From a virus, in IMG/VR virus record IMGVR_UViG_3300032323_003671, positions 9,263 through 73,262 of that record: a stretch of 64,000 nt of DNA. The stretch is one strand, 5' to 3'. Shown one piece after another: positions 3,560 to 41,338 of this stretch. A program made the translations under genes and the position numbers. Numbering within the stretch: position 1 is the stretch's first letter; each line of letters begins with the position of its first letter. The notes under the pieces are model-generated. The model did no database searches. It worked only from the letters and a program-made list of their open reading frames with translations, and was not told the origin of the DNA.

Positions 3560-3599
3560 GCGAAATAAAATCAAATCTTTTTAAAAGATTGATTGGTTT

Positions 3600-3671
3600 A
3601 TTCACGTGGCGGAATTGGTAAGACGCAAGTTATTTATACGAAAGTTATAGGTTCGAATACTATCCTGAATA
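3600..3671 (+). pseudogene. degenerate tRNA-like element
   Basis: D-arm TGGCGGAATTGGTAAGACGC, T-arm ATAGGTTCGAATACTAT, acceptor ATTCACG/CCTGAAT-A (one mismatch); no proper anticodon stem. Confidence 0.55.
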
Positions 3672-3685
3672 CAAAGCAAACAAAC

Positions 3686-4345
3686 ATGCAAATCACAGAT
3701 AAAATATCAATTACTAATGAGGATAATATGGCATTGATGTCTCGTTATCCAGATAAGTATTTTGATTTGGCGATTGTAGATCCTCCCTATGGCATTGGTG
3801 AAGATGGTGCTAAAAACCATTCTCGAAACAAAGCAGCAAGAGCCACTAAATACACATCAAAAAGTTGGGATTGTTCTCCACCTTCTATTGAATATTTTAA
3901 TGAATTATGTAGAGTTTCTAAAAATCAAATTATATGGGGCGCAAATCATTTCATTAGTCGTATTCCTTTAGATAGCAGTTGTTGGCTTGTTTGGAATAAA
4001 TTAAATTCTGGAGATTTTGCAGATTGTGAATTAGCATATACTTCATTTAATTCATCTGTTAGAAAGTTTGACTTTAGATGGAATGGAATGATTCAAGGTG
4101 ATATGAAAAACAAAGAAATCAGAATTCATCCAACTCAAAAACCTGTTGCACTTTACAAATGGATTCTTGACAAGTATGCCAAACCAGGTGATAAAATACT
4201 TGATACCCATTTAGGAAGTGGATCAATAGCGATAGCATGTCATGACTACGATTTTGAATTGACTGCATGCGAGCTTGATTCCGAATATTACCAAAAAGCA
4301 ATAGAAAGAATAAAAAAACATACTAATCAACAAAAACTATTTTAA
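3686..4345 (+). CDS. DNA N6-adenine/N4-cytosine methyltransferase (beta class)
   Basis: DPPY, HPTQKP and DTHLGSGS motifs; start moved from 3593 to ATG 3686 because the extension overlaps the tRNA-like element. Confidence 0.9.
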   Translation: MQITDKISITNEDNMALMSRYPDKYFDLAIVDPPYGIGEDGAKNHSRNKAARATKYTSKSWDCSPPSIEYFNELCRVSKNQIIWGANHFISRIPLDSSCWLVWNKLNSGDFADCELAYTSFNSSVRKFDFRWNGMIQGDMKNKEIRIHPTQKPVALYKWILDKYAKPGDKILDTHLGSGSIAIACHDYDFELTACELDSEYYQKAIERIKKHTNQQKLF

Positions 4346-4797: not shown

Positions 4798-5310
4798 ATG
4801 ATTAATTATTTTCAAGTAAAAGTAAGAGTAACAAGAACTATTAAAGGTAAACCAAAAAGAGTTTTTGAAAATTACCTAGTATGGGCGCAATCATTTACAG
4901 AGGCCGAAGCGAATATCATGCAATCTCTGTTAAATCCAGAAAGAGAAAATTTCGAGCAAAACAAAACAATGACTATCAATGCCATTGATCGATTCCAGAT
5001 TGATGATATTTTTGGTTCAGATTTTTCTGAGAAGTATTGGTTAGTAAAAGTTGACTACAATGTTCTAGATGGTAAACCAGTAAGATTAAAATATCTTATC
5101 AATTCAGCATCACCTGAAAAAGCATCAAGTGAATTGCTTGAAATTATTGCAAAGAATGAATCATCATCAAGATTTGAAGTTACCTCAATTTCTGCTTCTT
5201 CAATTTTAGAAGTTTTCACTTATGAAACTTCAAATTCAACTACAAATGAAAGCGCAGAAGAATCAGAAGAAGTTGAAGAATCAGAAGAAATGAATGTTAA
5301 CGAAGACTAA
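4798..5310 (+). CDS. DUF4494-like protein
   Basis: ENYLVWAQSFTEAEA motif typical of this Bacteroidota family; acidic tail. Confidence 0.65.
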   Translation: MINYFQVKVRVTRTIKGKPKRVFENYLVWAQSFTEAEANIMQSLLNPERENFEQNKTMTINAIDRFQIDDIFGSDFSEKYWLVKVDYNVLDGKPVRLKYLINSASPEKASSELLEIIAKNESSSRFEVTSISASSILEVFTYETSNSTTNESAEESEEVEESEEMNVNED

Positions 5311-5518: not shown

Positions 5519-5671
5519 ATGTTCAAAGTAGGAGATAAGGTTAATATAAAAAACCTAACACAGACAGGAGTTATTGTAGAAATCAGAAAAGACAAATTCA
5601 AGATTGAACTTGATGGTGGTTTCGGATTTTGGGTAGTTCAAAAAAACCAAATTTCATTGGTTGAAAAATGA
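5519..5671 (+). CDS. small KOW/SH3-like protein (50 aa, not in ORF track)
   Basis: MFKVGDKVNIKNLTQTGVIVEI...; stop overlaps the next ATG (ATGA). Confidence 0.6.
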   Translation: MFKVGDKVNIKNLTQTGVIVEIRKDKFKIELDGGFGFWVVQKNQISLVEK

Positions 5672-6780
5672 AATCAATCAAAGTAGGATCAGATTTTTCT
5701 GGTGTAGGTGCATTTAACCAAGCACTTATGCGTTTAGGTATCGATTTTAAAGAAGTTTTCGCATGCGACATGGACAAGTATGCTAGACAAACTTTTATTG
5801 CAAACTATGGAGAGCCTGAGTACTATCCACTGAATGTTTATGATCGAGAAATACCAAAAGAATCTTTGGATATCTATATGACTAGTCCTCCCTGCCAAGC
5901 ATTTAGCCTGGCAGGGAAAAGACTAGGTAAAGACGATAAAAGGGGAATTCTCTTTTTCAATAGTCTTGAATTCATTCAGAAAAATAAACCAAGGTATTTC
6001 ATTTTTGAAAATGTAAAGGGATTACTTTCTGATGATGGTGGCAAGACTTTTCAGGAATGGGTGAATCTTTTAGGCGGCAAATCAGTCAATGGCCTACCAG
6101 TTTTATTTCCATACGAAGAATCAGTGCCTTATCATCTATATTGGAAAGTTCTCAATGCAAAGCACCATGGAGTTCCGCAAAATCGTGAGCGAGTGTTCTT
6201 GGTTGGCATTCGAGATGATTCCGACAACAAATTTCAATTTCCAAGAGAGGAGCATTTATCCAAACGATTAAAAGATGTGCTTGAGCAAGAAATCGATCCA
6301 AAGTATTTTCTGAGTGAGAAATTATTATCCTATTTTGCAGACCATAAAGAAATGCATAAAGAACGTGGTAATGGATTTAAATTTGAACCTCATACAGACA
6401 CCACAAAGGTATCAAATGCCATCAGTACAAAATGTGGAAGTAGACAAACAGATCCATTTATTAAAATAAAATCAGCTACGACCAAAGGTTACGAAGAGGC
6501 GCAAGAAGGTGATTCAATAAATTTCAGCGTTCCGAATAGTGAAACTAGAAGAGGCCGAGTTGGAAAAGGAGTAGCTCAAACTTTGGATACTGCTTGTAAT
6601 CAAGGAACTTTAAAATCAGGAGAAATTCGAAGGCTTACACCTAGAGAATGTTTCCGATTAATGGACTTCCCAGATACATTTACTTGGCCTGTGTCCGACT
6701 CTCAAGCATACAAGCAAGCTGGCAATTCAATTGTGGTTGGAGTATTGTACAAAATAATTGCAAAATTCAAACTTAATTAA
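5668..6780 (+). CDS. dcm: DNA cytosine-5 methyltransferase
   Basis: FSGVGA, SPPCQAFS, ENVKG, PQNRERVF, RRLTPREC and QAGNS motifs. Confidence 0.95.
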   Translation: MKSIKVGSDFSGVGAFNQALMRLGIDFKEVFACDMDKYARQTFIANYGEPEYYPLNVYDREIPKESLDIYMTSPPCQAFSLAGKRLGKDDKRGILFFNSLEFIQKNKPRYFIFENVKGLLSDDGGKTFQEWVNLLGGKSVNGLPVLFPYEESVPYHLYWKVLNAKHHGVPQNRERVFLVGIRDDSDNKFQFPREEHLSKRLKDVLEQEIDPKYFLSEKLLSYFADHKEMHKERGNGFKFEPHTDTTKVSNAISTKCGSRQTDPFIKIKSATTKGYEEAQEGDSINFSVPNSETRRGRVGKGVAQTLDTACNQGTLKSGEIRRLTPRECFRLMDFPDTFTWPVSDSQAYKQAGNSIVVGVLYKIIAKFKLN

Positions 6781-7268
6781 TGAGTTCAAAGGCATCTATC
6801 GGTACACTATACATTAACAATGGTAGTGTATCGATTATTGAAGAAAAGTGTTTTGTCTTGGATTCAAGTCGTAAATACTTTCTATTTGATGTTGTTCCCA
6901 TGGGTGCAGTACGCATGTCTCAGAGTGATAAATGGAAATTAAATCCTAACCACCACAATATTCTTCAAAGGCAAAGACCAGAGGTTACTAGGTATTTCAG
7001 ATTTAAAAGAACTATCAAAGAACAATCGGTAAAAATGGGATATGTTCAAGATGCAACACTTGAAATTATATTTTTAGTTCCAATGCCAAGCAGTTGGTCC
7101 AAAAAGAAAAAGGAAAGACAAAATCGAATGCCTGTAAAAACAAGACCTGATATCGATAACTATGTAAAGGCATTTTTGGATGCATTATTAGTTGATGATG
7201 GATTTGTTTGGAAAATAATTGCAGAAAAGAGATATGCATACAAGGGATCAATTATCGTTTACAAATAA
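6780..7268 (+). CDS. rusA: RusA-family Holliday junction resolvase
   Basis: RPDIDNYVKAFLDAL..DD..V motif. Confidence 0.85.
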   Translation: MSSKASIGTLYINNGSVSIIEEKCFVLDSSRKYFLFDVVPMGAVRMSQSDKWKLNPNHHNILQRQRPEVTRYFRFKRTIKEQSVKMGYVQDATLEIIFLVPMPSSWSKKKKERQNRMPVKTRPDIDNYVKAFLDALLVDDGFVWKIIAEKRYAYKGSIIVYK

Positions 7269-7271
7269 GTC

Positions 7272-7460
7272 ATGAGTAAAAATATTTTATTTGGAACTAT
7301 CAAAGTCCAAGAAGGAAAATCATCCAAAACTGTTGAAAAGGCTGTGTTCATAGAAGGATCAGAATACTATGTTTCGCATGCAGATAAAAAACAACCACCA
7401 AGAAAAATACTCCAGGTAATCGAAACTAAAATAATTGGCAAAACAAATCAAAATGCTTAA
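7272..7460 (+). CDS. hypothetical protein
   Basis: 62-aa ORF tightly packed in the operon. Confidence 0.55.
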   Translation: MSKNILFGTIKVQEGKSSKTVEKAVFIEGSEYYVSHADKKQPPRKILQVIETKIIGKTNQNA

Positions 7461-7656
7461 AAGACATATACTTAAAGCGATATCTTATAGAATGTTAGGT
7501 ACGCTTCAAACAATGACTATTGGATATTTCTTTACAGGAAGTTTTATCATTTCAGGATCTATAGGAATAACTGAATTGTGCGTAAAACCAATGATATACT
7601 TTCTTCACGAAAGATTTTGGTACAAGTACGTTAAGTTTGGATTGGATAAAAAATAA
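7453..7656 (+). CDS. DUF2061 membrane protein
   Basis: KRH..KAISYR..GT...YFLHERFW pattern; ATG 7453 preferred. Confidence 0.8.
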   Translation: MLKRHILKAISYRMLGTLQTMTIGYFFTGSFIISGSIGITELCVKPMIYFLHERFWYKYVKFGLDKK

Positions 7657-7685
7657 AAAGGGAGACTACTATTATTCATCTCCCC
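7657..7685. terminator. intrinsic terminator between convergent units (U-tail on - strand, ends the tmRNA)
   Basis: GGGAGA...TCTCCC hairpin followed by TTTTT on the - strand. Confidence 0.7.
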
Positions 7686-7930
7686 AGTTTTGTTCCTAAG
7701 CTACTGCTCGTAGTTTAGGAAACATTTCAATAACGTTTCCGTTTATTTTTTTTGTTGACCAAATTCACACCTCTTTCTAACTGTCAAAACCAACGACATC
7801 CCCAATGAACTTTGGTAGGTTTGCAAGATGCCTAACTACCAGTTGACAAACACTTGTGGAGATGGAGGGATTCGAACCCTCGTCCAAATTAGCGACTAAT
7901 GTCAATTCGATATTTCTATCAAGTCAACGT
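7657..7930 (-). ncRNA. ssrA: circularly permuted (two-piece) tmRNA; tag (A)GNVIEMFPKLRAVA
   Basis: T-arm GAGGG-TTCGAAT-CCCTC plus CATCTCC-A (to 7857) lies upstream of the 5' end GGGGATG (7803); acceptor stem with G3:U70; inter-piece pairing; tag ORF 7740-7696 after ATAAAC. Confidence 0.9.
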
Positions 7931-7931
7931 T

Positions 7932-7939
7932 CAAAGATA
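7932..7939 (-). promoter_or_regulatory. Bacteroidota -7 promoter element for the tmRNA
   Basis: TATCTTTG matches TAnnTTTG immediately upstream of the acceptor piece. Confidence 0.7.
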
Positions 7940-7945
7940 AAATAA

Positions 7946-8509
7946 TTATTTTGATTCAGGTCTAGTGTAATACCAAAAAGCAAGAGCAAAAGCTGTTAAG
8001 CCTAATCCAATTGCAATATTACGATACTGAGTGGCAGTCAATCCTGATTTGTTGAAAGTATCGTTAGATGGGCTATATCGAAAATGCCAATCTTCTCCGA
8101 TTGATTTTCCTTCATCCCACATCCAACCATATTTCTCACCATTTTTCTTTACCCAATCTTGTGCAGATTTTGGATATAAGTCAATAGCTAATCCATAACC
8201 ATGATTTGATTTACAACCTTTTGAAGTGGATGGATCAGCTGCAACTGCATTTTTGCCAGCTTTATATTTTTCCCACAGACACCATTGTGTAGCACCACCT
8301 TTGCAATTACGCTCAGTGTAGTCTCCTTTTCGACCACATTTACGATAAGAAGATACCAAATTAAAAGTTACTCCAGAATCCTCTGCAGCAGCTTTCATTC
8401 TCAAATAAGAATCGGCAGCAGTTTTGAATAAAGCATGATTACCTCCAACACTTTTTAATACAGAGCTAGATAGTTTACCATTCTCACCGATTCCTTCTTT
8501 GTATGCCAT
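7946..8509 (-). CDS. M15B (VanY-like) peptidoglycan peptidase with C-terminal membrane anchor
   Basis: SSYR, SNHGYGLAID, EDWHF; hydrophobic C-terminal helix. Confidence 0.85.
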   Translation of the reverse strand: MAYKEGIGENGKLSSSVLKSVGGNHALFKTAADSYLRMKAAAEDSGVTFNLVSSYRKCGRKGDYTERNCKGGATQWCLWEKYKAGKNAVAADPSTSKGCKSNHGYGLAIDLYPKSAQDWVKKNGEKYGWMWDEGKSIGEDWHFRYSPSNDTFNKSGLTATQYRNIAIGLGLTAFALAFWYYTRPESK

Positions 8510-8979
8510 TATTTTACAGTTGTAACGACAGTTTTATCAGGTTTCATAATCGTAAACTCTACTCTACGATTTTTATCTCTACCTTCTGAAGTTTCATTAC
8601 TTGCAATTGGCATGGATTCTCCTTTTCCATCGGTAGCGATTCTTGAAGCATCAACTCCTTTAGAAACTAAATAATTAGAAACTGCAATGGAACGTTTTTT
8701 AGAAAGTTCTAAATTGCTTGCATCACTACCAACGTTATCGGTATGTCCAACAATTTTAATTTTCCAGGTTGGTTCTTTCACCAGTACATCTGCTAATTCA
8801 TCTAAAAAAGGAAAAGATTCCGCTTTGATAATTGCTTTACCATATTCGAAATTCAGATTATCAAACACATCTCTCAATGTTTGTTTGTCGGTCTTGCGAT
8901 ATTTAGTATAGTACCAAATACCTCCAATTAATAGAAGTATTACTGCGCCAAGTGCGATTTTTTGATTTTTTTTCATCAT
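8509..8979 (-). CDS. OmpA-like peptidoglycan-binding protein with N-terminal TM helix
   Basis: LNFEYGKA, GHTDNVG...NLELSKKRS..V, G.GES.PIASN, NRRVEF. Confidence 0.95.
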   Translation of the reverse strand: MMKKNQKIALGAVILLLIGGIWYYTKYRKTDKQTLRDVFDNLNFEYGKAIIKAESFPFLDELADVLVKEPTWKIKIVGHTDNVGSDASNLELSKKRSIAVSNYLVSKGVDASRIATDGKGESMPIASNETSEGRDKNRRVEFTIMKPDKTVVTTVK

Positions 8980-9662
8980 GCTACTTTCAAATCGTTTACT
9001 GCGATATCTAATGATCCATTTTTGCCAAGCATCTTTTTAATGTAACCAGCAGTGATTGCTGGTACTGAAGTAACAACTTGTGCAGTATCTTTATTTGCTA
9101 TTCCAGTGTTATTGAATCCTTTCAAGCCCCAATTGTAAAGGGCAATGATTCTATCCATACGGATAGCACCATTCGTAGTACCCCAAGGCTTATCCATATA
9201 CTGTCCTAAAATGATAGAACCAATCAAAATGTTTAATTCGGGATTCATTTGATCCTGCATAGTCAACTTTCTTGTATTACCTTTTGCATCAAAAGTTATT
9301 CCGAAAGATTTTAGCTTTTGTTTTTCAAATTCTGATAGACGACCTTGATTAAATTCTTTTGTCAAGGTAAAGTCAGGATTTCCTGTTCCTGCAACAAATT
9401 GTCTATTCCATTGCATTAAGCCAGTAGTTGGAGAATTATTTTGTGATCCTGCAGTTGGATTACCATTTGATTCAACCATAGTGAATGCCAAAAGAACAGC
9501 AGGTGGGATTCTAGAACTTTCGCCATATTGTTTAAAGAATGTACCATACTTAGACCATACATCTTTCATTTGTTTTGCTAGAGCTTCACGACTTGAATAC
9601 CAATTACTAGGACTTACTAGATTTGGATTTTTTTGAGGAACGGATAGTGTATAAGTAGCCAT
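8976..9662 (-). CDS. SLT-type lytic transglycosylase
   Basis: VESNGNP, GLMQ, NILIG, LYNWG motifs. Confidence 0.85.
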   Translation of the reverse strand: MATYTLSVPQKNPNLVSPSNWYSSREALAKQMKDVWSKYGTFFKQYGESSRIPPAVLLAFTMVESNGNPTAGSQNNSPTTGLMQWNRQFVAGTGNPDFTLTKEFNQGRLSEFEKQKLKSFGITFDAKGNTRKLTMQDQMNPELNILIGSIILGQYMDKPWGTTNGAIRMDRIIALYNWGLKGFNNTGIANKDTAQVVTSVPAITAGYIKKMLGKNGSLDIAVNDLKVA

Positions 9663-9931: not shown

Positions 9932-12900
9932 TTGAAAAAGATAAAAAAAACTAGCGATGCCAAGGATGGAGGACTATTTGTTGGCAAATCACATGACGAT
10001 GGTGGGATTCCTGCTATAGTTGTAGATACTGGACAACCTATTGAGGTTGAAGGTGGTGAAGCTATTATTAATAAAAAGGCCACAGCCAAACACTGGAAAG
10101 AATTATCAAAAATCAATCAAAGTACTGGTGGCGTTCCAATTCCTCCTCCTGATCGAGCAGATGAACTTATGGACAAGTTTGAAAAGGGAGGAAAGTTAAC
10201 TCAATTGGAGAAAAAAACTATTCACAACAAGTGGAAAAACTTGGTGAATATGACATACACTGAATTGAGAAAGTATTATGATTCCAAAGATGGCAAAACT
10301 AGTGGCTTAACTCAAAAAGAAGCTGATGATTTAGGTATTGATTCAGGTCGTGAAAGTGCTGTATGGATCATGAAAATGAAACGCACAAACTACAAGGATT
10401 GGACACCTGAAATGTGGCGTTGGGCTAAAAAACAAATAAGTTTTATATCTCGAATGAGAGGTAACCAAGGCGAGTTAATGGAAAATGGCAGAAGAACTCC
10501 AAAATTAAAATCATTATTGATTTGGGGTCATAATCCTTACAAATATGCAGGAGGCGGAGACATTCCAGCTGAAGCAAAGTATCCAGTTGATGCAAATTCT
10601 CTTCAAGTAATGCTTAAATATGCATCAAAAGAAGATGCACCTGCTATTCAGGAACAAATAGCCAAACTTAAACAAGAACATAAAGAAAAGTACCAAAAGA
10701 ATCGGAAAAAATATAAAGGAGGTGGTAAACCATCGGATATTGCCTCTGCAATACTTGGATTGAAAGCACTTTTGAAATATCCAGAATTACTAGAAAAATT
10801 TGATAAGGAAAATATAGAATACACTATCAAAGGATTAGAAATTCTTGATAAAATGCATCCTTCTGAAATTGATCCTAACGATACAAGTAGTGGAGTGAAA
10901 TTTATTCCATACAAGGATTACGAAATAATGTATGATCCATATACTAAAAACTACTATGCTAACGATGCTGAATTTGATTCTTTAGAAGATGCAAAAGCAT
11001 TTTTAGATTCAGGTAAAATTTCTGATTCAATTAGAGGTGCAATGCATTATGAAGTGTATGGATATTCAAAAGGTGGGTCAGTAAATAATCAAACACTTTT
11101 AGCACCAAATGGTAAACCAACTAAATTAACTCCAGAACAATACAAATTAGTTCGTACACCAGAATTCAAAGCCTGGTTTGGAGATTGGGAAAATGATCCT
11201 GAAAGCGCAAGTAAGGTAGTTGATAGTAATGGTGAGCCTAAAATATATTATCAAGGCGTACCATATTATCTATATCCTAATGGAAAATTTATTTACGAAA
11301 AAGATAATAATGGAATATTTTTTACATCTGATAAAAGAATCGCTTTAACATATGGGGTAGTAAAAGAAGTATTCATCAATTGCAGAAATCCAAAAGATAT
11401 CAGAAATTATTTTGGATTCGATGGTAAAAAAATACCGAATAGTGTCAGAAATGATAGAAACTATGATTTTAAATCGGAAGAAGAAATCCAATATGCCAAT
11501 TCAGATAAAGAAGTCATTAAATTTTATAAGGAAGTTATCAATAAGTATGGTAAACCCATTGAAATAACTGTTGATTCTACTGGTGAAAAATTCAAATTTA
11601 AGAGTGTAGAAGAAATAAAAAAATTCTTAATTCCAACTTCAGAAAAAGGATTTTCATTTTTGAATTTTACACGTAGAAGTCTTTTTTGGAATTGGATAGC
11701 AGAATATATTAAAAATTCTGAATACGATGGGATATTTGCAACTGATGAAGATCGTCTTTCTGAAGAAATATCAGATAGTGTAGTTGTTTATAATTCTAAT
11801 CAAATAAAACTTGCAGATGGAACGAATACTACTTTTGATTCTGAAAATCCTGATATTCGATTTGAAGATGGAGGATCAGTAAATAATCAACCACTTTTAG
11901 CACCAAATGGTAAACCAAGTAATCTATCGCCAGAACAATACAAATTAGTTCGCACACTAGAATTCAAAGCATGGTTTGGCGATTGGGAAAAATTGATTCA
12001 AGTCAAAATGAATGATTCTGCTATAGATGAAATTTCTCTGAAAAAAATATCAGATACAGTAAGTAAGGTCGTGGATTCAAATGGCGAACCTATGGTGGTT
12101 TATCACACAACTGACAAAGAATTTTTTATTTTCGATAAAAAAAAATCAAAAGAAGGATTCTTTTTCTCACCTCAAAAAGAAAGACTTTCAGTATATAATA
12201 AATCAAAAATAGGTCAGTATTTTTTAAATGTAAAAAATCCTTCTCACGAATTGTTTAAATCAGATGTGAATTATATTTTATCGAAAGGATACGATGGAAT
12301 TATGGATTATGGCCATGCAAGAAAAATAAATGAATCCTTGTATGAAATAATTGTTTTCGAACCTAATCAAATAAAACTTGCAGATGGAACGAATACTACT
12401 TTTGATTCTGAAAATCCTGATATTCGATTTGAAGATGGTGGCAAGACTGATTTAACATACAAAGAAAAATACAACAAGAAATATGGGTATGATTTGGATA
12501 AGTCTCACAGTCTTGAAGAAATAGCATCAAAAACAGGTATTTCACTTGAAGGGCTTCAAGAAATTTTCAATAAAGGTGTGGGTGCTTATAGAACAAATCC
12601 TGAAAGCGTTAGACCAAATGTAAAATCTCCAGAACAATGGGGAATGGCTAGAGTTTATAGCGCAGTCATGGGCGGTAAAACAGCAAAGATAGATTCAAAA
12701 GAACTTAAAATGGAAGGCGGAGGCAAAACCGATTCAGAAATGAATATAGAAAGATACGTTGTCAAACCTAGAGTAAAATTTGGGATGGTATTTGGGTATG
12801 TTGTTTACGATAATTTAGAAAAAAAGAATTTGCCTTATGATTATGATGAAGATGAACAATGGAAAGCTCAATCAAAAGCAGATTTACAAAACGAATTGGA

Positions 12901-13345
12901 GAAAAATCGTTTAAATAAAATGGAAGAAGGTGGCGTAACAGATAAAAAAGATACAGTAACCTTAGATATTCCATTACTCATAAGATTATTAGAATTATCA
13001 AGAGAAGACATTCAATCAGATGCTGACTTACACAAGGTTGTAGAAAATATGCTCGATTTAAAAAATAAGGAGGTCTTAACAATGGAGGATTATGATAAAA
13101 TTTCTCAAATCGCAAAAGAAAAATTAATTTCCCAAGCGCATTATAATTTGACAAGAAAACAAGGCCGACCTGAATACGCACCGAATTCACGTGAAATTGA
13201 AGCAGAGATTGAAAGAATGATAAATACAGAAAAATCAAAATTTGCCGATGGTGGAATACTAGAATCTGATACAATGGTAGTTCTACAATCACCAACTGAA
13301 ATGTTGGATGAAATCAACTTTAATGCACAATTTAAACCAGAATAA
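9932..13345 (+). CDS. large modular polyvalent protein (DUF3140-like, two ART-PolyVal-like modules, DUF5824-like)
   Basis: Two LAPNGKP...FKAWFGDWE...SKVVDSNGEP...QIKLADGTNTTFD modules; W..LVNMT..EL and KGVGAY...QWGMARV blocks; about nine [FMY]xxGG linkers. Confidence 0.7.
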   Translation: MKKIKKTSDAKDGGLFVGKSHDDGGIPAIVVDTGQPIEVEGGEAIINKKATAKHWKELSKINQSTGGVPIPPPDRADELMDKFEKGGKLTQLEKKTIHNKWKNLVNMTYTELRKYYDSKDGKTSGLTQKEADDLGIDSGRESAVWIMKMKRTNYKDWTPEMWRWAKKQISFISRMRGNQGELMENGRRTPKLKSLLIWGHNPYKYAGGGDIPAEAKYPVDANSLQVMLKYASKEDAPAIQEQIAKLKQEHKEKYQKNRKKYKGGGKPSDIASAILGLKALLKYPELLEKFDKENIEYTIKGLEILDKMHPSEIDPNDTSSGVKFIPYKDYEIMYDPYTKNYYANDAEFDSLEDAKAFLDSGKISDSIRGAMHYEVYGYSKGGSVNNQTLLAPNGKPTKLTPEQYKLVRTPEFKAWFGDWENDPESASKVVDSNGEPKIYYQGVPYYLYPNGKFIYEKDNNGIFFTSDKRIALTYGVVKEVFINCRNPKDIRNYFGFDGKKIPNSVRNDRNYDFKSEEEIQYANSDKEVIKFYKEVINKYGKPIEITVDSTGEKFKFKSVEEIKKFLIPTSEKGFSFLNFTRRSLFWNWIAEYIKNSEYDGIFATDEDRLSEEISDSVVVYNSNQIKLADGTNTTFDSENPDIRFEDGGSVNNQPLLAPNGKPSNLSPEQYKLVRTLEFKAWFGDWEKLIQVKMNDSAIDEISLKKISDTVSKVVDSNGEPMVVYHTTDKEFFIFDKKKSKEGFFFSPQKERLSVYNKSKIGQYFLNVKNPSHELFKSDVNYILSKGYDGIMDYGHARKINESLYEIIVFEPNQIKLADGTNTTFDSENPDIRFEDGGKTDLTYKEKYNKKYGYDLDKSHSLEEIASKTGISLEGLQEIFNKGVGAYRTNPESVRPNVKSPEQWGMARVYSAVMGGKTAKIDSKELKMEGGGKTDSEMNIERYVVKPRVKFGMVFGYVVYDNLEKKNLPYDYDEDEQWKAQSKADLQNELEKNRLNKMEEGGVTDKKDTVTLDIPLLIRLLELSREDIQSDADLHKVVENMLDLKNKEVLTMEDYDKISQIAKEKLISQAHYNLTRKQGRPEYAPNSREIEAEIERMINTEKSKFADGGILESDTMVVLQSPTEMLDEINFNAQFKPE
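11796..12438 (+). repeat. 76-bp exact direct repeat (11796-11871 and 12363-12438)
   Basis: ctaatcaaataaaacttgcagatgg...tttgaagatgg is identical in both copies; module starts near 11077 and 11877 are also near-identical. Confidence 0.9.
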
Positions 13346-13348
13346 TAA

Positions 13349-16300
13349 ATGGAAGCCCAAGATATTCAAAAACAGGTAGAAGAAAGATTAAAAGCTCAAC
13401 AAGAAGGCAAGGAATTCAAAGACATTGGTAAGGTTGCATATACTAAAAAAGAAATGGCAGCCTACAGATTAATATCATCAAAAATGCTTGTGGATTTAGA
13501 AGTAGATCCTACAATAGCATTTAACATGGTCAAAAAAGAAAATGTTTGGCCTGCATATAATGTTCAAGAATTAAAAGAAAAAGGTGTTTCTAGTGGTGCT
13601 GCATTTATGATGGTTAAATTAAGGACATCAGTTCCTAATAAACCTGAAAACTCTCCAAATAAGAGATCAAGTTATGTTCATTTTTTAGAATTACTTCAAT
13701 CAGATTTACAAAAGTGTATGACTTACTCTGATGTTTACAATTTGGCTCAAGAGTATCAAAAAATGCCATTGGATAAATTGATTGAATACTTTATCGATCC
13801 ATCTATTTTCCAGATGGATGAAGAAAATAGAATACTTGTTTTAGAAAAAGCCAAAAATAATCCTTCTATTCAGAAATTTACAAGTCGAGGATCTATATAT
13901 AATTTATTTAAAGAAGTATTTGCAACAACATTTGCAAATCTCATTTTTAACAAGACAGATGCAACTAATGCAGTATGGTATCAAGCTAGAGAATTTGCAG
14001 CACTTTCAGAAGAAGATTCTAAAACGCTTATTGACAAACAAATTGAATCGACAAAAAAGCAAGTAGAAGAAAATAATGCTGAAATTGAAAAAATCAAATC
14101 TGCATCATTTTCAGAACTAAAAAAAATAGCTGAAAAATATTACAGATTAAGTTCAGCAGCTAAAAAAATATACTATAGTGATCAACCTAAGTTGATGGAA
14201 TTTCTATTAGAAACCTTTCAAAGGAAAAATCAAAGGAGGGAGCTTGAACTTGCGGCATACAAACAAAAATATTCTCCAAGGTTAGAGGATTGGAGTTGGT
14301 TTGAAAAACCTAAAACTGAATCAGATACTCCAACAAAAAAGAGAGAGAAATCTATTAATACCAAAGAACCTTTATCTTATATAAAAAGAATAGGTGGATA
14401 TAAAATAAACACTGTCAAGGCACAAGAAATTATTGATTTATTTGGTTTTTCAGCTGTCAATTATGGAAAATATGTTGATGATGCCTGGTCGAAGCAACAC
14501 ACTAAACATTTTTTAGGTGCAATTTCAGATTTAGGTGATGTTTTAAACATTGATATTAAAAAAGTAAATGAGATAGGTGGATTGTCTATTGCTTTTGGTG
14601 CGAAAGGTATTGCTGGACACATGGCAACATATTTTTCTCAAAGTCATGATATAAATCTTACTAGAGGAAATGGAGATGGTTCAGTTGCTCATGAATGGGG
14701 ACATTATTTTGATAACATACTTTGTGATTTATCTGAAAAGAAAGCAGAACCAAAATTTGCATCAGCATCAAAAGCTGATAACGCAAGTATATCTGATATA
14801 GTTTCAAAAATAATGAACTTTATTTATAAAGGAGATCCAGAATATACCCCTAGAATTCCAATGACTTTTTATGCCAAAAAGTCTAGTTCTGTACCTTCGT
14901 ATTATAGTTATAAATATGGCAATCAGTCTATAAAAATTTTAGATACTATTGAAGAAACGTTAGATCAGTATTTAGATTTAGCAGAAGTAAATAGAGATAG
15001 ATATAATACTCAGTTAAGAGTTTTTGGATATATCATCGATGCCTTCGGTTTGGATAAATATTTGATTCCTATGAAATTGACTACAAGTTATCACTTTCAT
15101 AAATCTGCTTATTTTTCTTTCGTTTATTCAGGCACAAAAGAAAATGGTCAGCCTGCAATAATTACTGGTACAAGATCAGCCTATTGGACAAAAAATGTTG
15201 AGTTGTTTGCAAGAGCTTGGGAAACAGTAATTCTTAAAAAATTACTAGACAAAAATAGAGTTAGCAACTATTTAGTTGCTGATATTAATATGCAAGATGT
15301 CATTGATGAAAATTGGTTTCAACCTTATCCACAAGGAAAAGAACTTGAATATCTTGAAACTTTAATTGATGAACTAATAGATGCATTCAAATTAGTTTAT
15401 TCGGTGGGAGATTTCAATCCACCAAGTAGTATCAGAGAGGATGAATATTTAGATTTATCTCCGAATACAGATGAAGGTAAAACTGAATCAGGAATGGTAA
15501 TTGATAAATCAACCGAAACAAAAACAACAACTTTTATTGAAAACGATAAGGTAGTTGAACAAATTAAAAAACCAAGAAAACCTAGAACAAAGAAAACCGA
15601 AGCTGTCTCTCCAGAACCAAGTGTGGCAGCAATTGAAGAAAATTCTCTAGAATTACAAGAAGATGAAGAACCAAAAGTAGAAGAAATGCAAGAACAAGTA
15701 AAAAATGAATCGATTGACGATTCTCAGATAAATGTTTCTCTTTATGCAAATAATTGGAATCAAGTTCCTATTCGATGGAAAAATGTCAAAGGTATTCGTC
15801 CAATAGTAGTCAGTTTAAATCCATTTGATAAAAACCTATTAAGTCTTGCAAAAATTATTGTCAATACAAACATTAATTTCACCCCAAAACCAATTTTTAG
15901 TGCAATGTCTTTTGATAGCTCTGGAGTAACTTTTACAGATGCAAAGAAATTAGTTCATATCGCAGGTGAAAACATAGATTACACAGGAAACTATCCTACT
16001 TCTGAAACATCAAAATTTTTTCCAGGTTCAATTGAAAAACAAACCAAAGAATTGAATGCTATTCAATATCCGAATTGGAGATCGATAGTACCTAAAGAAA
16101 GCAAAGTAGAAAAAATAGAGATTGATAAACTTTATCAGTATGTTGTAGTTGCACTAAACTATGCAAACAAAATAAATCATACCATTGGATTTAAGTTTAG
16201 CAATTCAGATTTTATTGGATTTGATGGTGAGTTTCTAAAAGACATTTTAGAAGTACTTATGAAACTGCAACATACCAAAGATATCTATGTTCATTGGGCA

Positions 16301-17770
16301 AGTTCAAGTAGAGCTGTTTTATTTAGTTATGAAAAATCAATTGACATTGAAAAATCAACTTATGCGTTATTAATGCCGATGATGTTGCATGATGGTATTA
16401 ATCAATTAGGTGCATCAGATATTGATTACAAAAAAGATTTGAATTGTTATTTTGATTTTTCTGATAATCAAATTTATAATGCCGATGGATCAGTAGCAGA
16501 CTACAAAGAAAACTATGGAGATGCACCAGGAATGTCTTTGAATTTAATTTCAATGTTCGCTTCTTTCTTAAAATCAAGTAAATCAAAAAAAGACGCATAT
16601 TTTTATAGCTACATAAGAGTAGATAACGATAGTATATTGGTTTCTGATAAGAATACAAGACTTGAAATTCCAAATGATTATGATTTAATAACAGGTCTTT
16701 ATACTATTGAGAACAATGTTTTAATTCGTGATATTTCTGCAGATATAGATAACTATTCACTCGAAAAGAGAATAGCTACAAAAGATCCGATATTTGTTGC
16801 TAACACAGAGCAATTGCTTTTTTATATGAACAAAATGTCAAATCACCTATCTGATGATGATGATTTCAGACCTAAATTATCTGGATATATTTTTGAGAAA
16901 AAAGATAATCAAGTAAATGCAGTATCTACAGATGCTCATACTTTGATCAAACTTGATATCACAAATGCAATTGAATCTTCAATCGATGAATTCAATGTAA
17001 TTCTTGGGAATGCCACAACATTAATGAATGTTTCAAAATCTTGGGATTCAAAAAAAGTTGCGGTTTACATTGATAGTAAGGAAGAAAAATATCGTATCGT
17101 TTCAGATAGAATTCATTTTGAAGGTAAATTATATGACAAAGGCGTTACAAATTGGCGAGCAGTAACTCCAAACATTGTAAATAATCAATTGAAATTTAAT
17201 GTTAAAGATTTATTCTCTTGTTTGACTAATCCCGAACTTAAAAAGTATGCCGATAAATTCGGATCAAAAGTAAAAGACCTAGCTTTGTATAACAACTTTA
17301 ATGAAGTTTATGCGATTTATGATGCAAAAAACAATAATGAAAGTATCAAAGTTTGTGATTTAAAATTAAATCATACTGAAATAAACGAGTTGTTTAATAT
17401 CAATGAATCTTATGTTTTAATAATGCCTGTTGTATTTACGAATGGAAATTATTTCAATTTAGGAATAGGCAAACTTGAAGATGTAATGAATTCTATTGGT
17501 AAAGAAGAATGTACAGTAGTATATAAGGAATTAAATAGTGGCTATGTCTTCACTTCTGAAAATCTTTATTACAAAAACTCGGATGTTTACAAACCTGAGA
17601 AACCTAAAAAAGTTCAAAAACCAGTTGTCAAACCATCTGAACCTACTAATCAAAAGCAAGAAATATTAGATGCTTTAACTGGTGCGAAAACACTACTAAA
17701 ATACGTATCAGGAGAGGATAAATCAAATCTTTCGGCTTATATTAGAGGACTTGAAATCCTAATGAAATAA
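13349..17770 (+). CDS. large polyvalent protein: LPD1-like zincin region plus C-terminal beta-clamp-like domains
   Basis: HEWGH and ELFARAWE motifs; RPKLSG...VNAVSTDAHTL and YPNWRSIVP resemble DnaN motifs. Confidence 0.65.
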   Translation: MEAQDIQKQVEERLKAQQEGKEFKDIGKVAYTKKEMAAYRLISSKMLVDLEVDPTIAFNMVKKENVWPAYNVQELKEKGVSSGAAFMMVKLRTSVPNKPENSPNKRSSYVHFLELLQSDLQKCMTYSDVYNLAQEYQKMPLDKLIEYFIDPSIFQMDEENRILVLEKAKNNPSIQKFTSRGSIYNLFKEVFATTFANLIFNKTDATNAVWYQAREFAALSEEDSKTLIDKQIESTKKQVEENNAEIEKIKSASFSELKKIAEKYYRLSSAAKKIYYSDQPKLMEFLLETFQRKNQRRELELAAYKQKYSPRLEDWSWFEKPKTESDTPTKKREKSINTKEPLSYIKRIGGYKINTVKAQEIIDLFGFSAVNYGKYVDDAWSKQHTKHFLGAISDLGDVLNIDIKKVNEIGGLSIAFGAKGIAGHMATYFSQSHDINLTRGNGDGSVAHEWGHYFDNILCDLSEKKAEPKFASASKADNASISDIVSKIMNFIYKGDPEYTPRIPMTFYAKKSSSVPSYYSYKYGNQSIKILDTIEETLDQYLDLAEVNRDRYNTQLRVFGYIIDAFGLDKYLIPMKLTTSYHFHKSAYFSFVYSGTKENGQPAIITGTRSAYWTKNVELFARAWETVILKKLLDKNRVSNYLVADINMQDVIDENWFQPYPQGKELEYLETLIDELIDAFKLVYSVGDFNPPSSIREDEYLDLSPNTDEGKTESGMVIDKSTETKTTTFIENDKVVEQIKKPRKPRTKKTEAVSPEPSVAAIEENSLELQEDEEPKVEEMQEQVKNESIDDSQINVSLYANNWNQVPIRWKNVKGIRPIVVSLNPFDKNLLSLAKIIVNTNINFTPKPIFSAMSFDSSGVTFTDAKKLVHIAGENIDYTGNYPTSETSKFFPGSIEKQTKELNAIQYPNWRSIVPKESKVEKIEIDKLYQYVVVALNYANKINHTIGFKFSNSDFIGFDGEFLKDILEVLMKLQHTKDIYVHWASSSRAVLFSYEKSIDIEKSTYALLMPMMLHDGINQLGASDIDYKKDLNCYFDFSDNQIYNADGSVADYKENYGDAPGMSLNLISMFASFLKSSKSKKDAYFYSYIRVDNDSILVSDKNTRLEIPNDYDLITGLYTIENNVLIRDISADIDNYSLEKRIATKDPIFVANTEQLLFYMNKMSNHLSDDDDFRPKLSGYIFEKKDNQVNAVSTDAHTLIKLDITNAIESSIDEFNVILGNATTLMNVSKSWDSKKVAVYIDSKEEKYRIVSDRIHFEGKLYDKGVTNWRAVTPNIVNNQLKFNVKDLFSCLTNPELKKYADKFGSKVKDLALYNNFNEVYAIYDAKNNNESIKVCDLKLNHTEINELFNINESYVLIMPVVFTNGNYFNLGIGKLEDVMNSIGKEECTVVYKELNSGYVFTSENLYYKNSDVYKPEKPKKVQKPVVKPSEPTNQKQEILDALTGAKTLLKYVSGEDKSNLSAYIRGLEILMK

Positions 17771-17797
17771 ATAATAACTTTGTTAAAATCTTTTAAA

Positions 17798-18262
17798 ATG
17801 AATATTGCAGAAATCAAATCAGACATTCGAGATCTTGAAGCAGCTATAAAATCTCCTCAAACTCCAGATAACTTTAAAGAAAAAATGAAAGCGCAAGTTG
17901 AAGTTCTTAAAGTTAAACTTGAAGAGGCCGAATCCAAAGCCAAAGAACCAGCACCTGCTGAACCAAAAATTGAGCCGAAAAAAAAAGGTGTTCCATTACC
18001 TAAAGATCAACAACAAAAAGTTGAATACGATTGTGATGAACTAATTGCTCAGGCAAAGGCTAGACGTAAAGCAGCTAAAGAGCGTTCAAAAGCTCCTAAA
18101 AAAACCGAAGCGACAAAGAACAAAGAAAAAATCGAAACAGTATTTGATAATGTGAAAAAACGTGCAGACGAAAAAGACATTTCAAAAGCAGAAATTGAAA
18201 AGCTAATTTCTGAGACAAAAACATTATTAAAATTATTAGAGACTAAATTATCATCTCTTTAA
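17798..18262 (+). CDS. coiled-coil/basic hypothetical protein
   Basis: Helical, Lys/Glu-rich; ATG 17798 preferred over TTG 17780. Confidence 0.65.
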   Translation: MNIAEIKSDIRDLEAAIKSPQTPDNFKEKMKAQVEVLKVKLEEAESKAKEPAPAEPKIEPKKKGVPLPKDQQQKVEYDCDELIAQAKARRKAAKERSKAPKKTEATKNKEKIETVFDNVKKRADEKDISKAEIEKLISETKTLLKLLETKLSSL

Positions 18263-18279
18263 AATCAAAAGTTCTTATC

Positions 18280-40862: not shown

Positions 40863-40873
40863 AACATTGTATA

Positions 40874-41338
40874 ATGAAACTAAGTAATAATTTTTGGTTA
40901 ATTGAATTCACTAGAAGTGATTTAGCTAAACGCCTTGGCATTAGTAATCAACCTACCAAAGCGCATTTAGAAAATATCAAATTACTTTGTGAAAAGGTTT
41001 TAGAACCGATTCGAGAACACTTTGATACTCCTATTTATATTAGTTCGGGATATAGATCGATAGAACTAAATAAGAAAACTCCTGGTGCATCTACTACTTC
41101 TCAACATTCAAGTGGAGAGGCAGCAGATATCGATATGGATGGTAGCATCATTTCAAATGCGGATGTCTTTAATTACATAAAAGAAAATCTAGAGTTTGAT
41201 CAACTTATCTGGGAATTTGGTACAGATACAAATCCTGATTGGGTTCATGTATCCTTTGAATCCTCAGGTAAACAACGTAAACAAATTCTTAAAGCGGTTA
41301 AATCAGGCGGAAAGAAATTTTATAGAAAGTTTAAATAA
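40874..41338 (+). CDS. M15A peptidase (endolysin)
   Basis: SSGYRS..LN, SQH..GEAADI, WVHVS; ATG 40874 preferred. Confidence 0.9.
   Translation: MKLSNNFWLIEFTRSDLAKRLGISNQPTKAHLENIKLLCEKVLEPIREHFDTPIYISSGYRSIELNKKTPGASTTSQHSSGEAADIDMDGSIISNADVFNYIKENLEFDQLIWEFGTDTNPDWVHVSFESSGKQRKQILKAVKSGGKKFYRKFK

What the first reader, a model, noticed from the sequence alone, without database searches (positions are those of the whole stretch)
7657..7939. Phage-encoded circularly permuted (two-piece), minimised tmRNA
Seen on the - strand in this order: TATCTTTG promoter; acceptor piece ending GGAC-GAGGG-TTCGAAT-CCCTC-CATCTCC-A (7857; CCA not encoded); about 50-nt intervening hairpin; coding piece starting GGGGATG (7803); tag ORF GNVIEMFPKLRAVA* (7740-7696) with a hairpin over the stop; terminator. 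The acceptor stem is 7/7 with the alanine determinant G3:U70. The pieces pair further (AGTTAG/CTAATT, GTGTGAATTTGGT/ATCGAATTGACAT, GTCAAC/GTTGAC). No room for the usual pseudoknots is apparent. Known: permuted ssrA occurs in alphaproteobacteria, some cyanobacteria, some betaproteobacteria and certain mitochondria, while Bacteroidota normally have one-piece tmRNA with a Gly resume codon. Inference: an independent permutation in a phage, perhaps to sustain ribosome rescue when host defences cleave RNA, or to redirect tagging.
Basis: partly seen in the sequence, partly recalled or inferred. Interest (0 to 1): 0.88.

Follow-up and report, generated by a model that had tools for sequence, protein, structure and literature searches.

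The report
Compact two-piece tmRNA gene in phage
This uncultured virus carries a real, back-to-front and unusually small gene for tmRNA, the RNA that frees stalled ribosomes; it belongs to a sizeable family in viruses of Bacteroidota that public records label simply as tmRNA.

Summary
ARAGORN calls one permuted tmRNA at 7605-7948(-), tag GNVIEMFPKLRAVA*. Rfam's tmRNA_permuted model scores 61 bits against a cut-off of 47.

It is not a lone event. I collected 36 relatives with 29 distinct tag genes from viral contigs, Chryseobacterium phage MA9V-3, crAss-like phages and three Bacteroidota genomes that also keep a normal one-piece tmRNA. In this family the tag frame stays open, the acceptor stem covaries, and the two pieces fit their own partners better than others'.

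The family has no room for pseudoknots. None of 8 members tested passes the alpha, beta or cyanobacterial models. It shares signature bases and the Gly resume codon with Bacteroidia one-piece tmRNA.

Phage two-piece tmRNAs are already published (PMC9004378), and close relatives are annotated in GenBank. This scan reported the same family at least seven times on other DNA. Processing, charging and tagging remain untested.

The parts
7932..7939 (-). TATCTTTG, a candidate Bacteroidota-type -7 promoter box directly after the stop (7948-7946) of the upstream M15/VanY gene
   Evidence: Read. The motif alone is common in this AT-rich window: 121 matches against 101.6 expected, with 3 of 100 shuffles reaching 121. 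Its position is what recurs. In 10 of 34 distinct family upstream regions a TAnnTTTG starts 41-54 nt before GGAC, 7 of them at 41-43. The sigma-70 scanner found no - strand promoter here. Its role as a promoter is inferred.
7857..7928 (-). Acceptor piece, with the 5' end estimated just downstream of the promoter box. It holds the P2c strand GTTGAC (7928-7923), the P2b strand ATCGAATTGACAT (7911-7899), the P2a strand CTAATT (7892-7887), the T-arm (7881-7865), the acceptor 3' strand CATCTCC (7864-7858) and discriminator A (7857). CCA is not encoded.
   Evidence: ARAGORN 3' tRNA domain; two-strand fold. The 5' end is inferred, not mapped.
7804..7856 (-). Intervening sequence of 53 nt between the two pieces, presumed to be removed during maturation
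   Evidence: Its own hairpin is not better than chance (z -0.73). Removal is inferred from known two-piece tmRNAs (PMC3985003, passages read).
7741..7803 (-). 5' part of the coding piece. It holds the acceptor 5' strand GGGGATG (7803-7797), the D-loop analogue GGTTTTGAC (7791-7783), the P2a strand AGTTAG (7782-7777), the P2b strand GTGTGAATTTGGT (7770-7758), the P2c strand GTCAAC (7759-7754) and an A-rich linker with the resume context AATAAAC. Only 42 nt lie between GAC and the resume codon.
   Evidence: In three Bacteroidia one-piece genes the same interval is about 73-79 nt.
7696..7740 (-). Tag reading frame GGA...TAG encoding GNVIEMFPKLRAVA*
   Evidence: The frame is conserved in 29 of 29 distinct family tag genes. 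Lengths are 10-23 codons and 25 of 29 end in VA or AA. The other two frames are short with random ends.
7691..7724 (-). Hairpin that encloses the stop codon, the equivalent of tmRNA helix 5
   Evidence: MFE and centroid structures.
7648..7685 (-). Intrinsic-terminator-like hairpin GGGGAGAU/AGUCUCCC with an 11-nt loop and a U-run. It is the presumed 3' end of the coding piece and abuts the stop of the convergent DUF2061 gene (7435-7656, +).
   Evidence: The simple scanner missed it: its loop limit is 8 and this loop has 11 nt.

Best explanation
This is a working two-piece tmRNA (ssrA) gene of a virus that very probably infects Bacteroidota.

Proposed mechanism:
1. One precursor is transcribed from the box at 7939-7932 to the terminator at about 7650.
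2. Host RNase P cuts 5' of G7803. The acceptor piece is trimmed after A7857 and the host enzyme adds CCA. The 53-nt spacer is discarded.
3. An acceptor piece of about 70 nt and a coding piece of about 150 nt stay together through the 7-bp acceptor stem and the three-part helix 2.
4. Host AlaRS charges the RNA via G3:U70. Host SmpB and EF-Tu deliver it to ribosomes stalled on broken mRNA.
5. Translation resumes at GGA (7740) and adds (A)GNVIEMFPKLRAVA. The stop codon then releases the ribosome, and the VA/AA-type tail probably marks the product for proteolysis.

Shown here: gene identity, architecture, family-wide conservation of the tag frame, and covariation of the acceptor stem and of the inter-piece pairing.

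Inferred: every biochemical step, the promoter, the ends of the pieces, and the benefit to the virus. The likely benefit is keeping ribosomes free while mRNA is being degraded during infection.

The family is pseudoknot-free. It most likely descends from, or is tuned to, the one-piece tmRNA of Bacteroidia.
For: Detection: ARAGORN and Rfam RF04321 both call it.

Relatives in phage records: MA9V-3 has tag GNVIDINKYVAKLEVAA** and RF04321 at 64.7 bits. crAss-like cr50_1 scores 60.3 bits.

Family size: my pattern scans gave 36 compact relatives with 29 distinct tag genes, all with an open frame of 10-23 codons, and 25 of 29 ending VA or AA.

Acceptor stem: pair 5:68 occurs as G-C 14, C-G 13, A-U 3, U-A 2 and U.G 1 among 33 distinct sequences.

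Inter-piece pairing: each acceptor arm pairs better with its own coding arm. Mean duplex energy is -15.4 against -10.9 kcal/mol, and 0 of 10000 derangements are as good. For the window the value is -19.4, with 1 of 58 foreign combinations as good.

Host link:
- 4 of 5 hits in cellular genomes are Bacteroidota.
- Three of those genomes also carry a normal one-piece tmRNA at 141-157 bits, with tags GENNYALAA or GESNYALAA.
- 28 of 31 compact members have U before GAC and 17 of 31 have UUUGGAC, as in Bacteroidia one-piece genes. Among other permuted genes the counts are 2 of 27 and 0 of 27.

Strain variation: four variants inside the gene (7752, 7793, 7796, 7929) all fall at positions I place as unpaired.
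Against: - There are no expression data. No RNA holder is on record, and only contigs could be laid.
- No SmpB gene was found in the 73-kb record, so host SmpB must serve. The record is only 48% complete.
- There is no pseudoknot 1. A review says two-piece coding pieces typically keep PK1 and PK2 (PMC3985003, passage read). Whether a pseudoknot-free tag-encoding tmRNA works has not been shown for this family.
- The pairing test is uneven. In 7 of 30 members (for example L057 with 47 of 58 and L016 with 36 of 58) 20 or more of 58 foreign combinations were as good as the cognate pair or better.
- RNAalifold on a MAFFT alignment recovered only the T-arm and acceptor stem.
- A longest-helix count barely separates cognate from foreign pairs (7.1 against 6.07, sd 1.31).
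- The promoter motif is frequent by chance.
Confidence: 0.78

Rival explanations
1. It is a decoy. The RNA, or its tRNA-like domain, titrates host SmpB, AlaRS or EF-Tu and so blocks the host's own trans-translation, as proposed for the tRNA-like-domain-only gene of mycobacteriophage DS6A.
For: A DS6A-like molecule is reported to inhibit tmRNA when expressed in E. coli (PMC4131195 and PMC11915505, passages read). The window RNA lacks all pseudoknots. No SmpB gene was found in the record.
Against: A decoy needs no tag. Here the tag frame, the resume context, the protease-type VA/AA ends and the stop-codon hairpin are kept across 29 distinct tag genes.
Confidence: 0.1
2. It is a working tmRNA whose longer, different tag does not feed host proteolysis. 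Instead it changes the fate of rescued products, for example by sparing them or handing them to a virus-specific adaptor or protease.
For: The family tags (consensus about G-K/N-V-I-x-M-F-x-x-P-x-L-R-x-V-A, mode 15 residues) are unlike the host tags GENNYALAA and GESNYALAA. The MA9V-3 paper lists a phage ClpX gene beside its tmRNA (PMC13120357, Table 2 passage read).
Against: 25 of 29 tags still end in VA or AA, like ordinary degradation tags. No ClpP or ClpX-type AAA domain was found in this 48%-complete record.
Confidence: 0.1
3. It is a dead remnant: an att-site duplication or a scrambled fragment of a host ssrA gene picked up by imprecise excision.
For: tmRNA genes are common integration sites, and fragments occur in prophages (PMC9004378 and PMC4131195, passages read).
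Against: - Both halves are complete, in the same permuted order and with similar spacing in 36 relatives.
- The stems covary and the frames stay open.
- No integrase was found in the record.
- The gene differs widely from host one-piece genes (RF00023 gives only 30-32 bits).
Confidence: 0.02

Closest known systems
Two-piece (circularly permuted) tmRNAs of Alphaproteobacteria, a betaproteobacterial group and cyanobacteria (Rfam RF01849, RF01850, RF01851; merged model RF04321; PMC11915505 and PMC3985003, passages read)
   Same: The gene order is the same: acceptor 3' half, spacer, acceptor 5' half, tag. Both have a tRNA-like domain with G3:U70, a tag ORF and a helix 2 that holds the pieces together. 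The window passes RF04321 at 61 bits.
   Different: - It fails all three lineage models: alpha gives no hit at the locus, beta 35.7 against 84, cyano 39.7 against 70. The same holds for 7 of 7 further compact relatives tested.
- It has no PK1 or PK2.
- CCA is not encoded (encoded in 1 of 31 compact members against 19 of 27 others).
- The resume codon is Gly, not Ala.
- It is carried by viruses of a phylum whose cells use one-piece tmRNA. RF04321 passed its cut-off in 1 of 151 Bacteroidota genomes, and that one was the known carrier.
Phage-encoded two-piece tmRNAs of marine myophages (OM43 phage Melnitz, pelagimyophages; PMC9004378, passages read: 53 of 133 unique phage tmRNAs called two-piece by ARAGORN)
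   Same: A virus-borne permuted ssrA with no virus-borne integrase. The proposed role is to maintain the hijacked translation machinery.
   Different: Those belong to the alphaproteobacterial type, with Ala-resume tags and pseudoknots. In my viral sample such genes passed the alpha or beta models (6 of 7). The paper's Table S1 could not be opened. An earlier scan note says it lists crAss-like entries, which I did not check.
tmRNA features annotated in Chryseobacterium phage MA9V-3 (PV245944; PMC13120357) and crAss-like phage cr50_1 (MT774375)
   Same: They are the same compact permuted family. MA9V-3 has tag GNVIDINKYVAKLEVAA** and RF04321 at 64.7 bits, with the same resume context AATAAACGGAAACGTTATTGA.
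   Different: The records and the MA9V-3 paper say only 'tmRNA, SsrA'. In the three passages of the paper that mention tmRNA, permutation and missing pseudoknots are not mentioned. The window's virus shares no long DNA with them.
One-piece tmRNA of Bacteroidia (Sunxiuqinia indica, Carboxylicivirga sediminis, a Bacteroidales MAG; loci L079-L081)
   Same: Gly resume codon, GG(U/A)UUUGAC followed by AG, UUUGGAC before the T-arm, and CCA often not encoded.
   Different: These are about 395-402 nt with standard gene order, about 73-79 nt between GAC and the resume codon, a pseudoknot region of about 235 nt after the tag, and tags GENNYALAA or GESNYALAA.
Reduced tmRNAs: the tRNA-like-domain-only gene of mycobacteriophage DS6A, and plastid and jakobid mitochondrial forms (PMC4131195, PMC11915505, PMC3985003, passages read)
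   Same: Loss of pseudoknots and strong size reduction.
   Different: DS6A and the mitochondrial forms have no tag frame. This family keeps a conserved tag.

Membership tests
tmRNA, permuted (two-piece) gene form (Rfam RF04321) | Score at or above the curated gathering score over the full model | tested here: met
   61 bits against 47, model positions 1-213. The same result came from the whole 73-kb record.
tmRNA, permuted (two-piece) gene form (Rfam RF04321) | tRNA-like domain: 5-bp T-stem with 7-nt loop, 7-bp acceptor stem formed by distant halves, G3:U70 and discriminator A | tested here: met
   GAGGG-TTCGAAT-CCCTC, and GGGGATG/CATCTCC+A. Acceptor pair 5:68 covaries in four Watson-Crick forms across 33 relatives.
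tmRNA, permuted (two-piece) gene form (Rfam RF04321) | Permuted order: the acceptor 3' half lies upstream of the 5' half on one strand | tested here: met
   3' domain at 7894-7856 and 5' domain at 7803-7775, by ARAGORN's numbering.
tmRNA, permuted (two-piece) gene form (Rfam RF04321) | Tag reading frame with resume context, conserved in relatives | tested here: met
   29 of 29 distinct tag genes are open for 10-23 codons, and 25 of 29 end VA or AA.
tmRNA, permuted (two-piece) gene form (Rfam RF04321) | Helix 2 pairing between the two pieces, kept by covariation | tested here: met
   Cognate duplex energies beat foreign ones, with 0 of 10000 derangements as good. Support is uneven between members, and RNAalifold on MAFFT did not recover the helix.
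tmRNA, permuted (two-piece) gene form (Rfam RF04321) | Pseudoknots (PK1 and PK2 typical of two-piece coding pieces, per PMC3985003) | tested here: not met
   There are 42 nt between GAC and the resume codon, all taken by helix 2 strands and an A-rich linker. Only a stop hairpin and a terminator follow the tag. This feature is typical rather than defining, since plastid forms also lack pseudoknots.
tmRNA, permuted (two-piece) gene form (Rfam RF04321) | Maturation into two RNAs, CCA at the acceptor end, alanine charging, SmpB binding, tagging | not testable with these tools
   No RNA run on record. The contigs laid show presence only.
alpha_tmRNA (RF01849) | Gathering score of 50 bits | tested here: not met
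   No match at the locus. The only matches in the record are two unrelated ones at 3.1 and 2.4 bits.
beta_tmRNA (RF01850) | Gathering score of 84 bits | tested here: not met
   35.7 bits, a local match to model positions 81-162.
cyano_tmRNA (RF01851) | Gathering score of 70 bits | tested here: not met
   39.7 bits.
Standard one-piece tmRNA (RF00023) | Gathering score of 47 bits with standard gene order | tested here: not met
   30-32.4 bits, and only the 3' tRNA-like part aligns with confidence.

The most novel reading that the evidence does not exclude
The compact family would be a fourth bacterial-type lineage of two-piece tmRNA. It would have arisen by its own permutation of the Bacteroidia one-piece gene inside virus genomes. 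It would work as a complete tagging tmRNA with no pseudoknot at all. Here it would also sit in a virus that an earlier scan note reads as tailless and membrane-containing, which would take tmRNA carriage beyond tailed phages.
Probability: 0.3. Interest if true: 0.6.

Novelty: new variant of a known kind. Interest (0 to 1): 0.42.

Why it matters
The kind of gene is known, and relatives are already labelled tmRNA in public records, so the window's gene is not a discovery in itself.

What is not in the papers I could search is the lineage. That lineage is a pseudoknot-free, Gly-resume, CCA-less two-piece tmRNA carried by viruses of a phylum whose cells use the one-piece form.

If it works, three things follow:
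- It sets a natural lower size limit of about 220 nt for a tagging tmRNA.
- It gives another case of gene permutation to compare with the three known ones.
- It offers a cultivable system (MA9V-3 on Chryseobacterium) for asking why viruses bring their own ribosome-rescue RNA with a tag unlike the host's.

Tried and rejected
DNA and protein similarity
- DNA similarity to GenBank phages was uninformative for the virus. The only hit was a 111-nt methyltransferase stretch.
- For the gene itself, hits were T-arm-sized only, except for MA9V-3.
- A tblastn search with the 842-aa protein gave one weak hit.

Pattern scans and script errors
- The second viral pattern fixed the spacer length too tightly and found only 4 stretches. 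I replaced it with the pattern.
- Two scripts had errors. One was a regex slip that gave 0 rows. The other was a wrong group index. I corrected them, and the faulty outputs are not used.

Structure tests that gave little
- MAFFT plus RNAalifold on 31 sequences recovered only the T-arm and acceptor stem. Helix 2 strands are too variable in length for that alignment.
- A fixed-register count of helix 2a gave 148 of 231 standard pairs, against 127.4 for shuffled partners (0 of 1000 as high). But the register shifted by one gave 167, so the register is not uniform and I do not lean on this count.
- A first duplex test on 23 sequences was redone on 30.
- The longest-helix count was nearly uninformative in this AT-rich RNA (7.1 against 6.07).
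- The simple promoter and terminator scanner found nothing on the - strand.
- I built no covariance model and ran no R-scape-type test.

Expression
- No RNA holder is listed.
- The one run labelled RNA-Seq (X14, which the tool rates as probably DNA) gave a 466-nt contig over 7647-8111 that ends at the terminator. I treat this as no evidence.
- The depth peak at 7828-7915 comes from short T-arm matches of other organisms.

Gene content and literature
- SmpB, ClpP, AAA_2 and integrase searches of the 48%-complete record were blank.
- The paper with PubMed id 19617710 (Variations on the tmRNA gene) is not held.
- Supplementary tables of PMC9004378 and PMC11915505 were closed. They may list members of this family.

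Readings rejected
- I considered and rejected the att-site remnant reading (see rivals).
- I considered and rejected membership of the alpha, beta or cyanobacterial lineages.

Full report
1. What is there

The 289-nt gap between the VanY/M15-type gene (7946-8509, -) and the convergent DUF2061 gene (7435-7656, +) has no ORF of 60 aa or more.

- TATCTTTG is at 7939-7932.
- Three stretches later pair with the coding piece.
- The T-arm GAGGG-TTCGAAT-CCCTC is at 7881-7865.
- CATCTCC plus discriminator A ends at 7857 and is followed by CAA, so CCA is not encoded.
- 53 nt of spacer follow.
- GGGGATG starts at 7803, and GGTTTTGAC follows.
- The frame GGA...TAG at 7740-7696 encodes GNVIEMFPKLRAVA*.

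ARAGORN finds exactly one RNA gene in the 64 kb. It is a permuted tmRNA with this tag. Rfam's only hit above threshold in the window is tmRNA_permuted (RF04321). It scores 61 bits against 47, with E 2.3e-9 over the full model. This is far more than chance.

2. Anatomy

These are CUAAUU/AGUUAG, AUCGAAUUGACAU/GUGUGAAUUUGGU (12 of 13) and GUUGAC/GUCAAC.

The stop codon sits in the 3' strand of a hairpin. A GGGGAGAU/AGUCUCCC hairpin with a U-run follows (91 nt folded, z -4.2, 0 of 200 shuffles as stable). The spacer's own hairpin is not better than chance (z -0.73).

Only 42 nt separate GAC from the resume codon. Helix 2 strands and an A-rich linker use all of them, and only a stop hairpin and terminator follow the tag. 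There is therefore no room for any pseudoknot.

Three Bacteroidia one-piece genes that I fetched for comparison are 395-402 nt long. They have about 73-79 nt before the resume codon.

3. Relatives

The nearest GenBank phage match is Chryseobacterium phage MA9V-3. Its annotated 'tmRNA SsrA' is also permuted, with tag GNVIDINKYVAKLEVAA** and RF04321 at 64.7 bits. crAss-like phage cr50_1 has one too, at 60.3 bits. Cellulophaga phage Calle_1 has a standard one-piece gene.

Three pattern scans of IMG/VR returned 64, 4 and 30 stretches. They fall into three groups.
- Ala-resume genes. CCA is encoded in most, and they carry a PK1-sized segment.
- A CCA-less group with spacers of 32-37 nt that also has a PK1-like segment.
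- The compact group to which the window belongs.

By my rules the compact group has 36 members, plus one cut by a contig end. It has 29 distinct tag genes. The patterns fixed parts of the T-arm and acceptor stem, so those parts are biased by the search. The tag, helix 2 and spacer were left free.

Tag frame. All 29 distinct tag genes are open for 10-23 codons (mode 15), and 25 of 29 end in VA or AA. Resume codons are GGC in 20, GGA in 4, TCA in 3 and GAC in 2. The two other frames give short peptides with random ends. Many tags share G-K/N-V-I-x-M-F...L-R-x-V-A with the window.

Acceptor stem. Pair 5:68 occurs as G-C 14, C-G 13, A-U 3, U-A 2 and U.G 1 among 33 distinct sequences.

Inter-piece pairing. 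Across 30 sequences the acceptor-piece arm pairs with its own coding-piece arm at a mean of -15.4 kcal/mol. With foreign arms the mean is -10.9 (sd 3.4), and none of 10000 derangements reaches the cognate mean. The window's pair scores -19.4, with 1 of 58 foreign combinations as good.

Results against. In 7 of 30 members 20 or more of 58 foreign combinations were as good as the cognate pair or better, for example L057 and L016. RNAalifold on MAFFT did not recover helix 2. A fixed-register count was ambiguous. A longest-helix count was nearly blind.

Att-site remnant. This reading is excluded by the complete, ordered, covarying halves in many viruses. No integrase was found in the record.

5. 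Host and origin

Four are in Bacteroidota: Sunxiuqinia indica, Carboxylicivirga sediminis, a Bacteroidales MAG and an Aequorivita MAG. One is in a Deltaproteobacteria MAG.

The first three genomes carry the compact permuted gene, with tags GKTIQMFDYEAKVAA*, GKTITHDFTQLRAVA* and GKTIKMFTQPLRMVA*. They also carry a normal one-piece tmRNA at 141-157 bits, with tags GENNYALAA or GESNYALAA.

In 151 Bacteroidota genomes RF04321 passed its cut-off only in the centre genome, which was already known. Ten of the 12 loci fetched from that search (the known permuted gene plus the best sub-threshold hits) were ordinary one-piece genes.

The lineage-specific models reject the window. Alpha gives no hit at the locus, beta 35.7 against 84, and cyano 39.7 against 70. 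Seven further compact members also pass RF04321 alone, at 55-73 bits. By contrast 6 of 7 non-compact viral genes pass the alpha or beta model, and all 7 score 84-153 bits on RF04321.

Signature bases that the search patterns did not fix point to Bacteroidia.
- U before GAC: 28 of 31 compact members against 2 of 27 other permuted genes.
- UUUGGAC before the T-arm: 17 of 31 against 0 of 27.
- CCA encoded: 1 of 31 against 19 of 27.
- The three Bacteroidia one-piece genes have U before GAC in 3 of 3, UUUGGAC in 2 of 3 and a Gly resume codon in 3 of 3.
- Ten Ala-resume one-piece genes from other Bacteroidota classes have C before GAC.

This fits descent from the Bacteroidia gene, or tuning to that host's machinery. 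It is not a phylogenetic proof.

6. Expression signals and strains

TAnnTTTG alone is common in this window, with 121 matches against 101.6 expected. Its placement is what recurs: 10 of 34 distinct family upstream regions have it 41-54 nt before GGAC, and 7 of those are at 41-43. Several other members sit directly behind tRNA-like 3' ends instead.

No RNA run is on record for this virus. Contigs of four runs show related strains. Four differences fall inside the gene, at 7752, 7793, 7796 and 7929, all at positions I place as unpaired. Thirty fall in the 1017 nt of flank examined. The numbers are small.

7. How it most likely works

See Best explanation. The steps follow established knowledge of two-piece tmRNA: RNase P and 3' processing of a permuted precursor, alanine identity via the acceptor stem, and SmpB dependence (PMC3985003, passages read). 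All are inferred here.

The record holds no SmpB, ClpP or ClpX-type domain, but it is only 48% complete.

8. What is known

- Two-piece tmRNA genes in phages are published. In the Melnitz study 53 of 133 unique phage tmRNAs were called two-piece by ARAGORN, mostly marine (PMC9004378, passages read).
- The 2025 tmRNA database counts 79 phage sequences and built RF04321 from alpha, beta and cyanobacterial seeds (PMC11915505, passages read).
- The MA9V-3 paper lists the tmRNA and a ClpX gene. In the three passages that mention tmRNA it does not mention permutation (PMC13120357, passages read).
- My searches found no paper that describes a Bacteroidota-virus lineage or a pseudoknot-free tagging two-piece form. 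For some searches I saw the listings and opened PMC6235969, PMC12291355, PMC13503771, PMC8776804, PMC11590407 and PMC10013915 at their tmRNA passages. Supplements were closed.
- This scan has reported the same family on other DNA at least seven times, with the same reading. I reached my reading before seeing those notes, and they are not independent evidence.

9. Verdict

It is a new member of a compact family that is itself an undescribed variant of a known kind. Interest is moderate.

Noticed in passing
window 7946-9662 (-); L101 5266-5721; L027 10710-11081: The tmRNA gene follows three cell-wall genes on the same strand: SLT transglycosylase 8976-9662, OmpA-like 8509-8979 and VanY/M15 peptidase 7946-8509. 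The window's other M15_3 endolysin (40826-41338) has homologues right beside the compact tmRNA in L101 (same strand, 63% identity) and L027. The family may therefore tend to sit next to lysis genes.
   Followed up: partly
L075, L073, L100, L051, L057, L072, L099 (acceptor-piece leader and coding-piece arm): Between helix 2c and 2b many members keep an asymmetric internal loop. One strand reads stem-GUU-GA-AG and the other reads UG-GA-stem. By eye this fits a kink-turn consensus (3-nt bulge, tandem G.A). The window lacks it and has an 11-nt bulge instead (sequences). This was read by eye only.
   Followed up: no
L075, L087, L100, L102, L051 (intervening sequences): A subgroup shares a spacer motif GYTAAYC, then a stem, then a C(G/A)C..TAGT loop, then the stem again. 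The stem covaries as CTGT/ACAG, CCGT/ACGG, CAGC/GCTG and ACGC/GCGT (alignment). In that subgroup the 'discarded' spacer is therefore structured. The window's spacer instead shares AGTTAGGC...GCAAACC with L057 and L088.
   Followed up: no
L016, L027, L077 (TCA); L057, L099 (GAC): Some family members appear to resume at Ser (TCA) or Asp (GAC) codons instead of Gly, with otherwise homologous tags (SKVINLFREPLRMAV, DKVIQMNRPAKLVA). ARAGORN missed or mis-framed several of these.
   Followed up: partly
L084-L086, L089, L091, L092, L095-L097: This is a third kind of viral permuted tmRNA. CCA is not encoded, the spacer is only 32-37 nt, a PK1-like segment is present, and tags such as GTFNSPLALAA occur. 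Of the three tested, L084 passes the alpha model, L085 passes the beta model and L091 passes neither.
   Followed up: partly
L005, L019, L021, L022, L031, L060 (crAss-like contigs): The compact tmRNA is followed at once by, and overlaps at its 3' end, a tRNA that ARAGORN cannot name ('tRNA-???', anticodon given as 'tt'). Rfam scores it as tRNA at 54.4 bits in L005.
   Followed up: no
L073 about 5005-5040 (-), L074 about 3660-3690 (-): Directly upstream of the permuted tmRNA in two Bacteroidota genomes lies a further T-arm plus acceptor-3'-like stretch that ARAGORN does not call as a tRNA. It may be a tRNA 3' end or a second half-molecule.
   Followed up: no
window 9932-20811 (+): Three very large neighbouring ORFs (1137, 1473 and 843 aa) carry polyvalent-protein domains: ART-PolyVal, DUF5824, LPD1, a DNA pol III beta-like piece and LPD11. 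Five large ORFs further on (29949-31196, 24086-25252, 35044-37281, 38334-40862 and 8976-9662) had no PHROG family. Earlier scan notes read the virus as tailless and membrane-containing. I did not test that.
   Followed up: no
window 3593-4345, 5668-6780, 6780-7268, 4798-5310 (+): Upstream on the other strand lie two DNA methyltransferases, a RusA-like resolvase and a DUF4494 protein. Homologues of the 250-aa methyltransferase recur on five other compact-tmRNA contigs (L016, L033, L071, L087, L099).
   Followed up: no
window 8509-8518: Contigs of two runs (X5, X7) carry 571 other letters in place of 8 bases at the OmpA/VanY gene junction. This is a strain-level insertion or replacement (table 5).
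   Followed up: no
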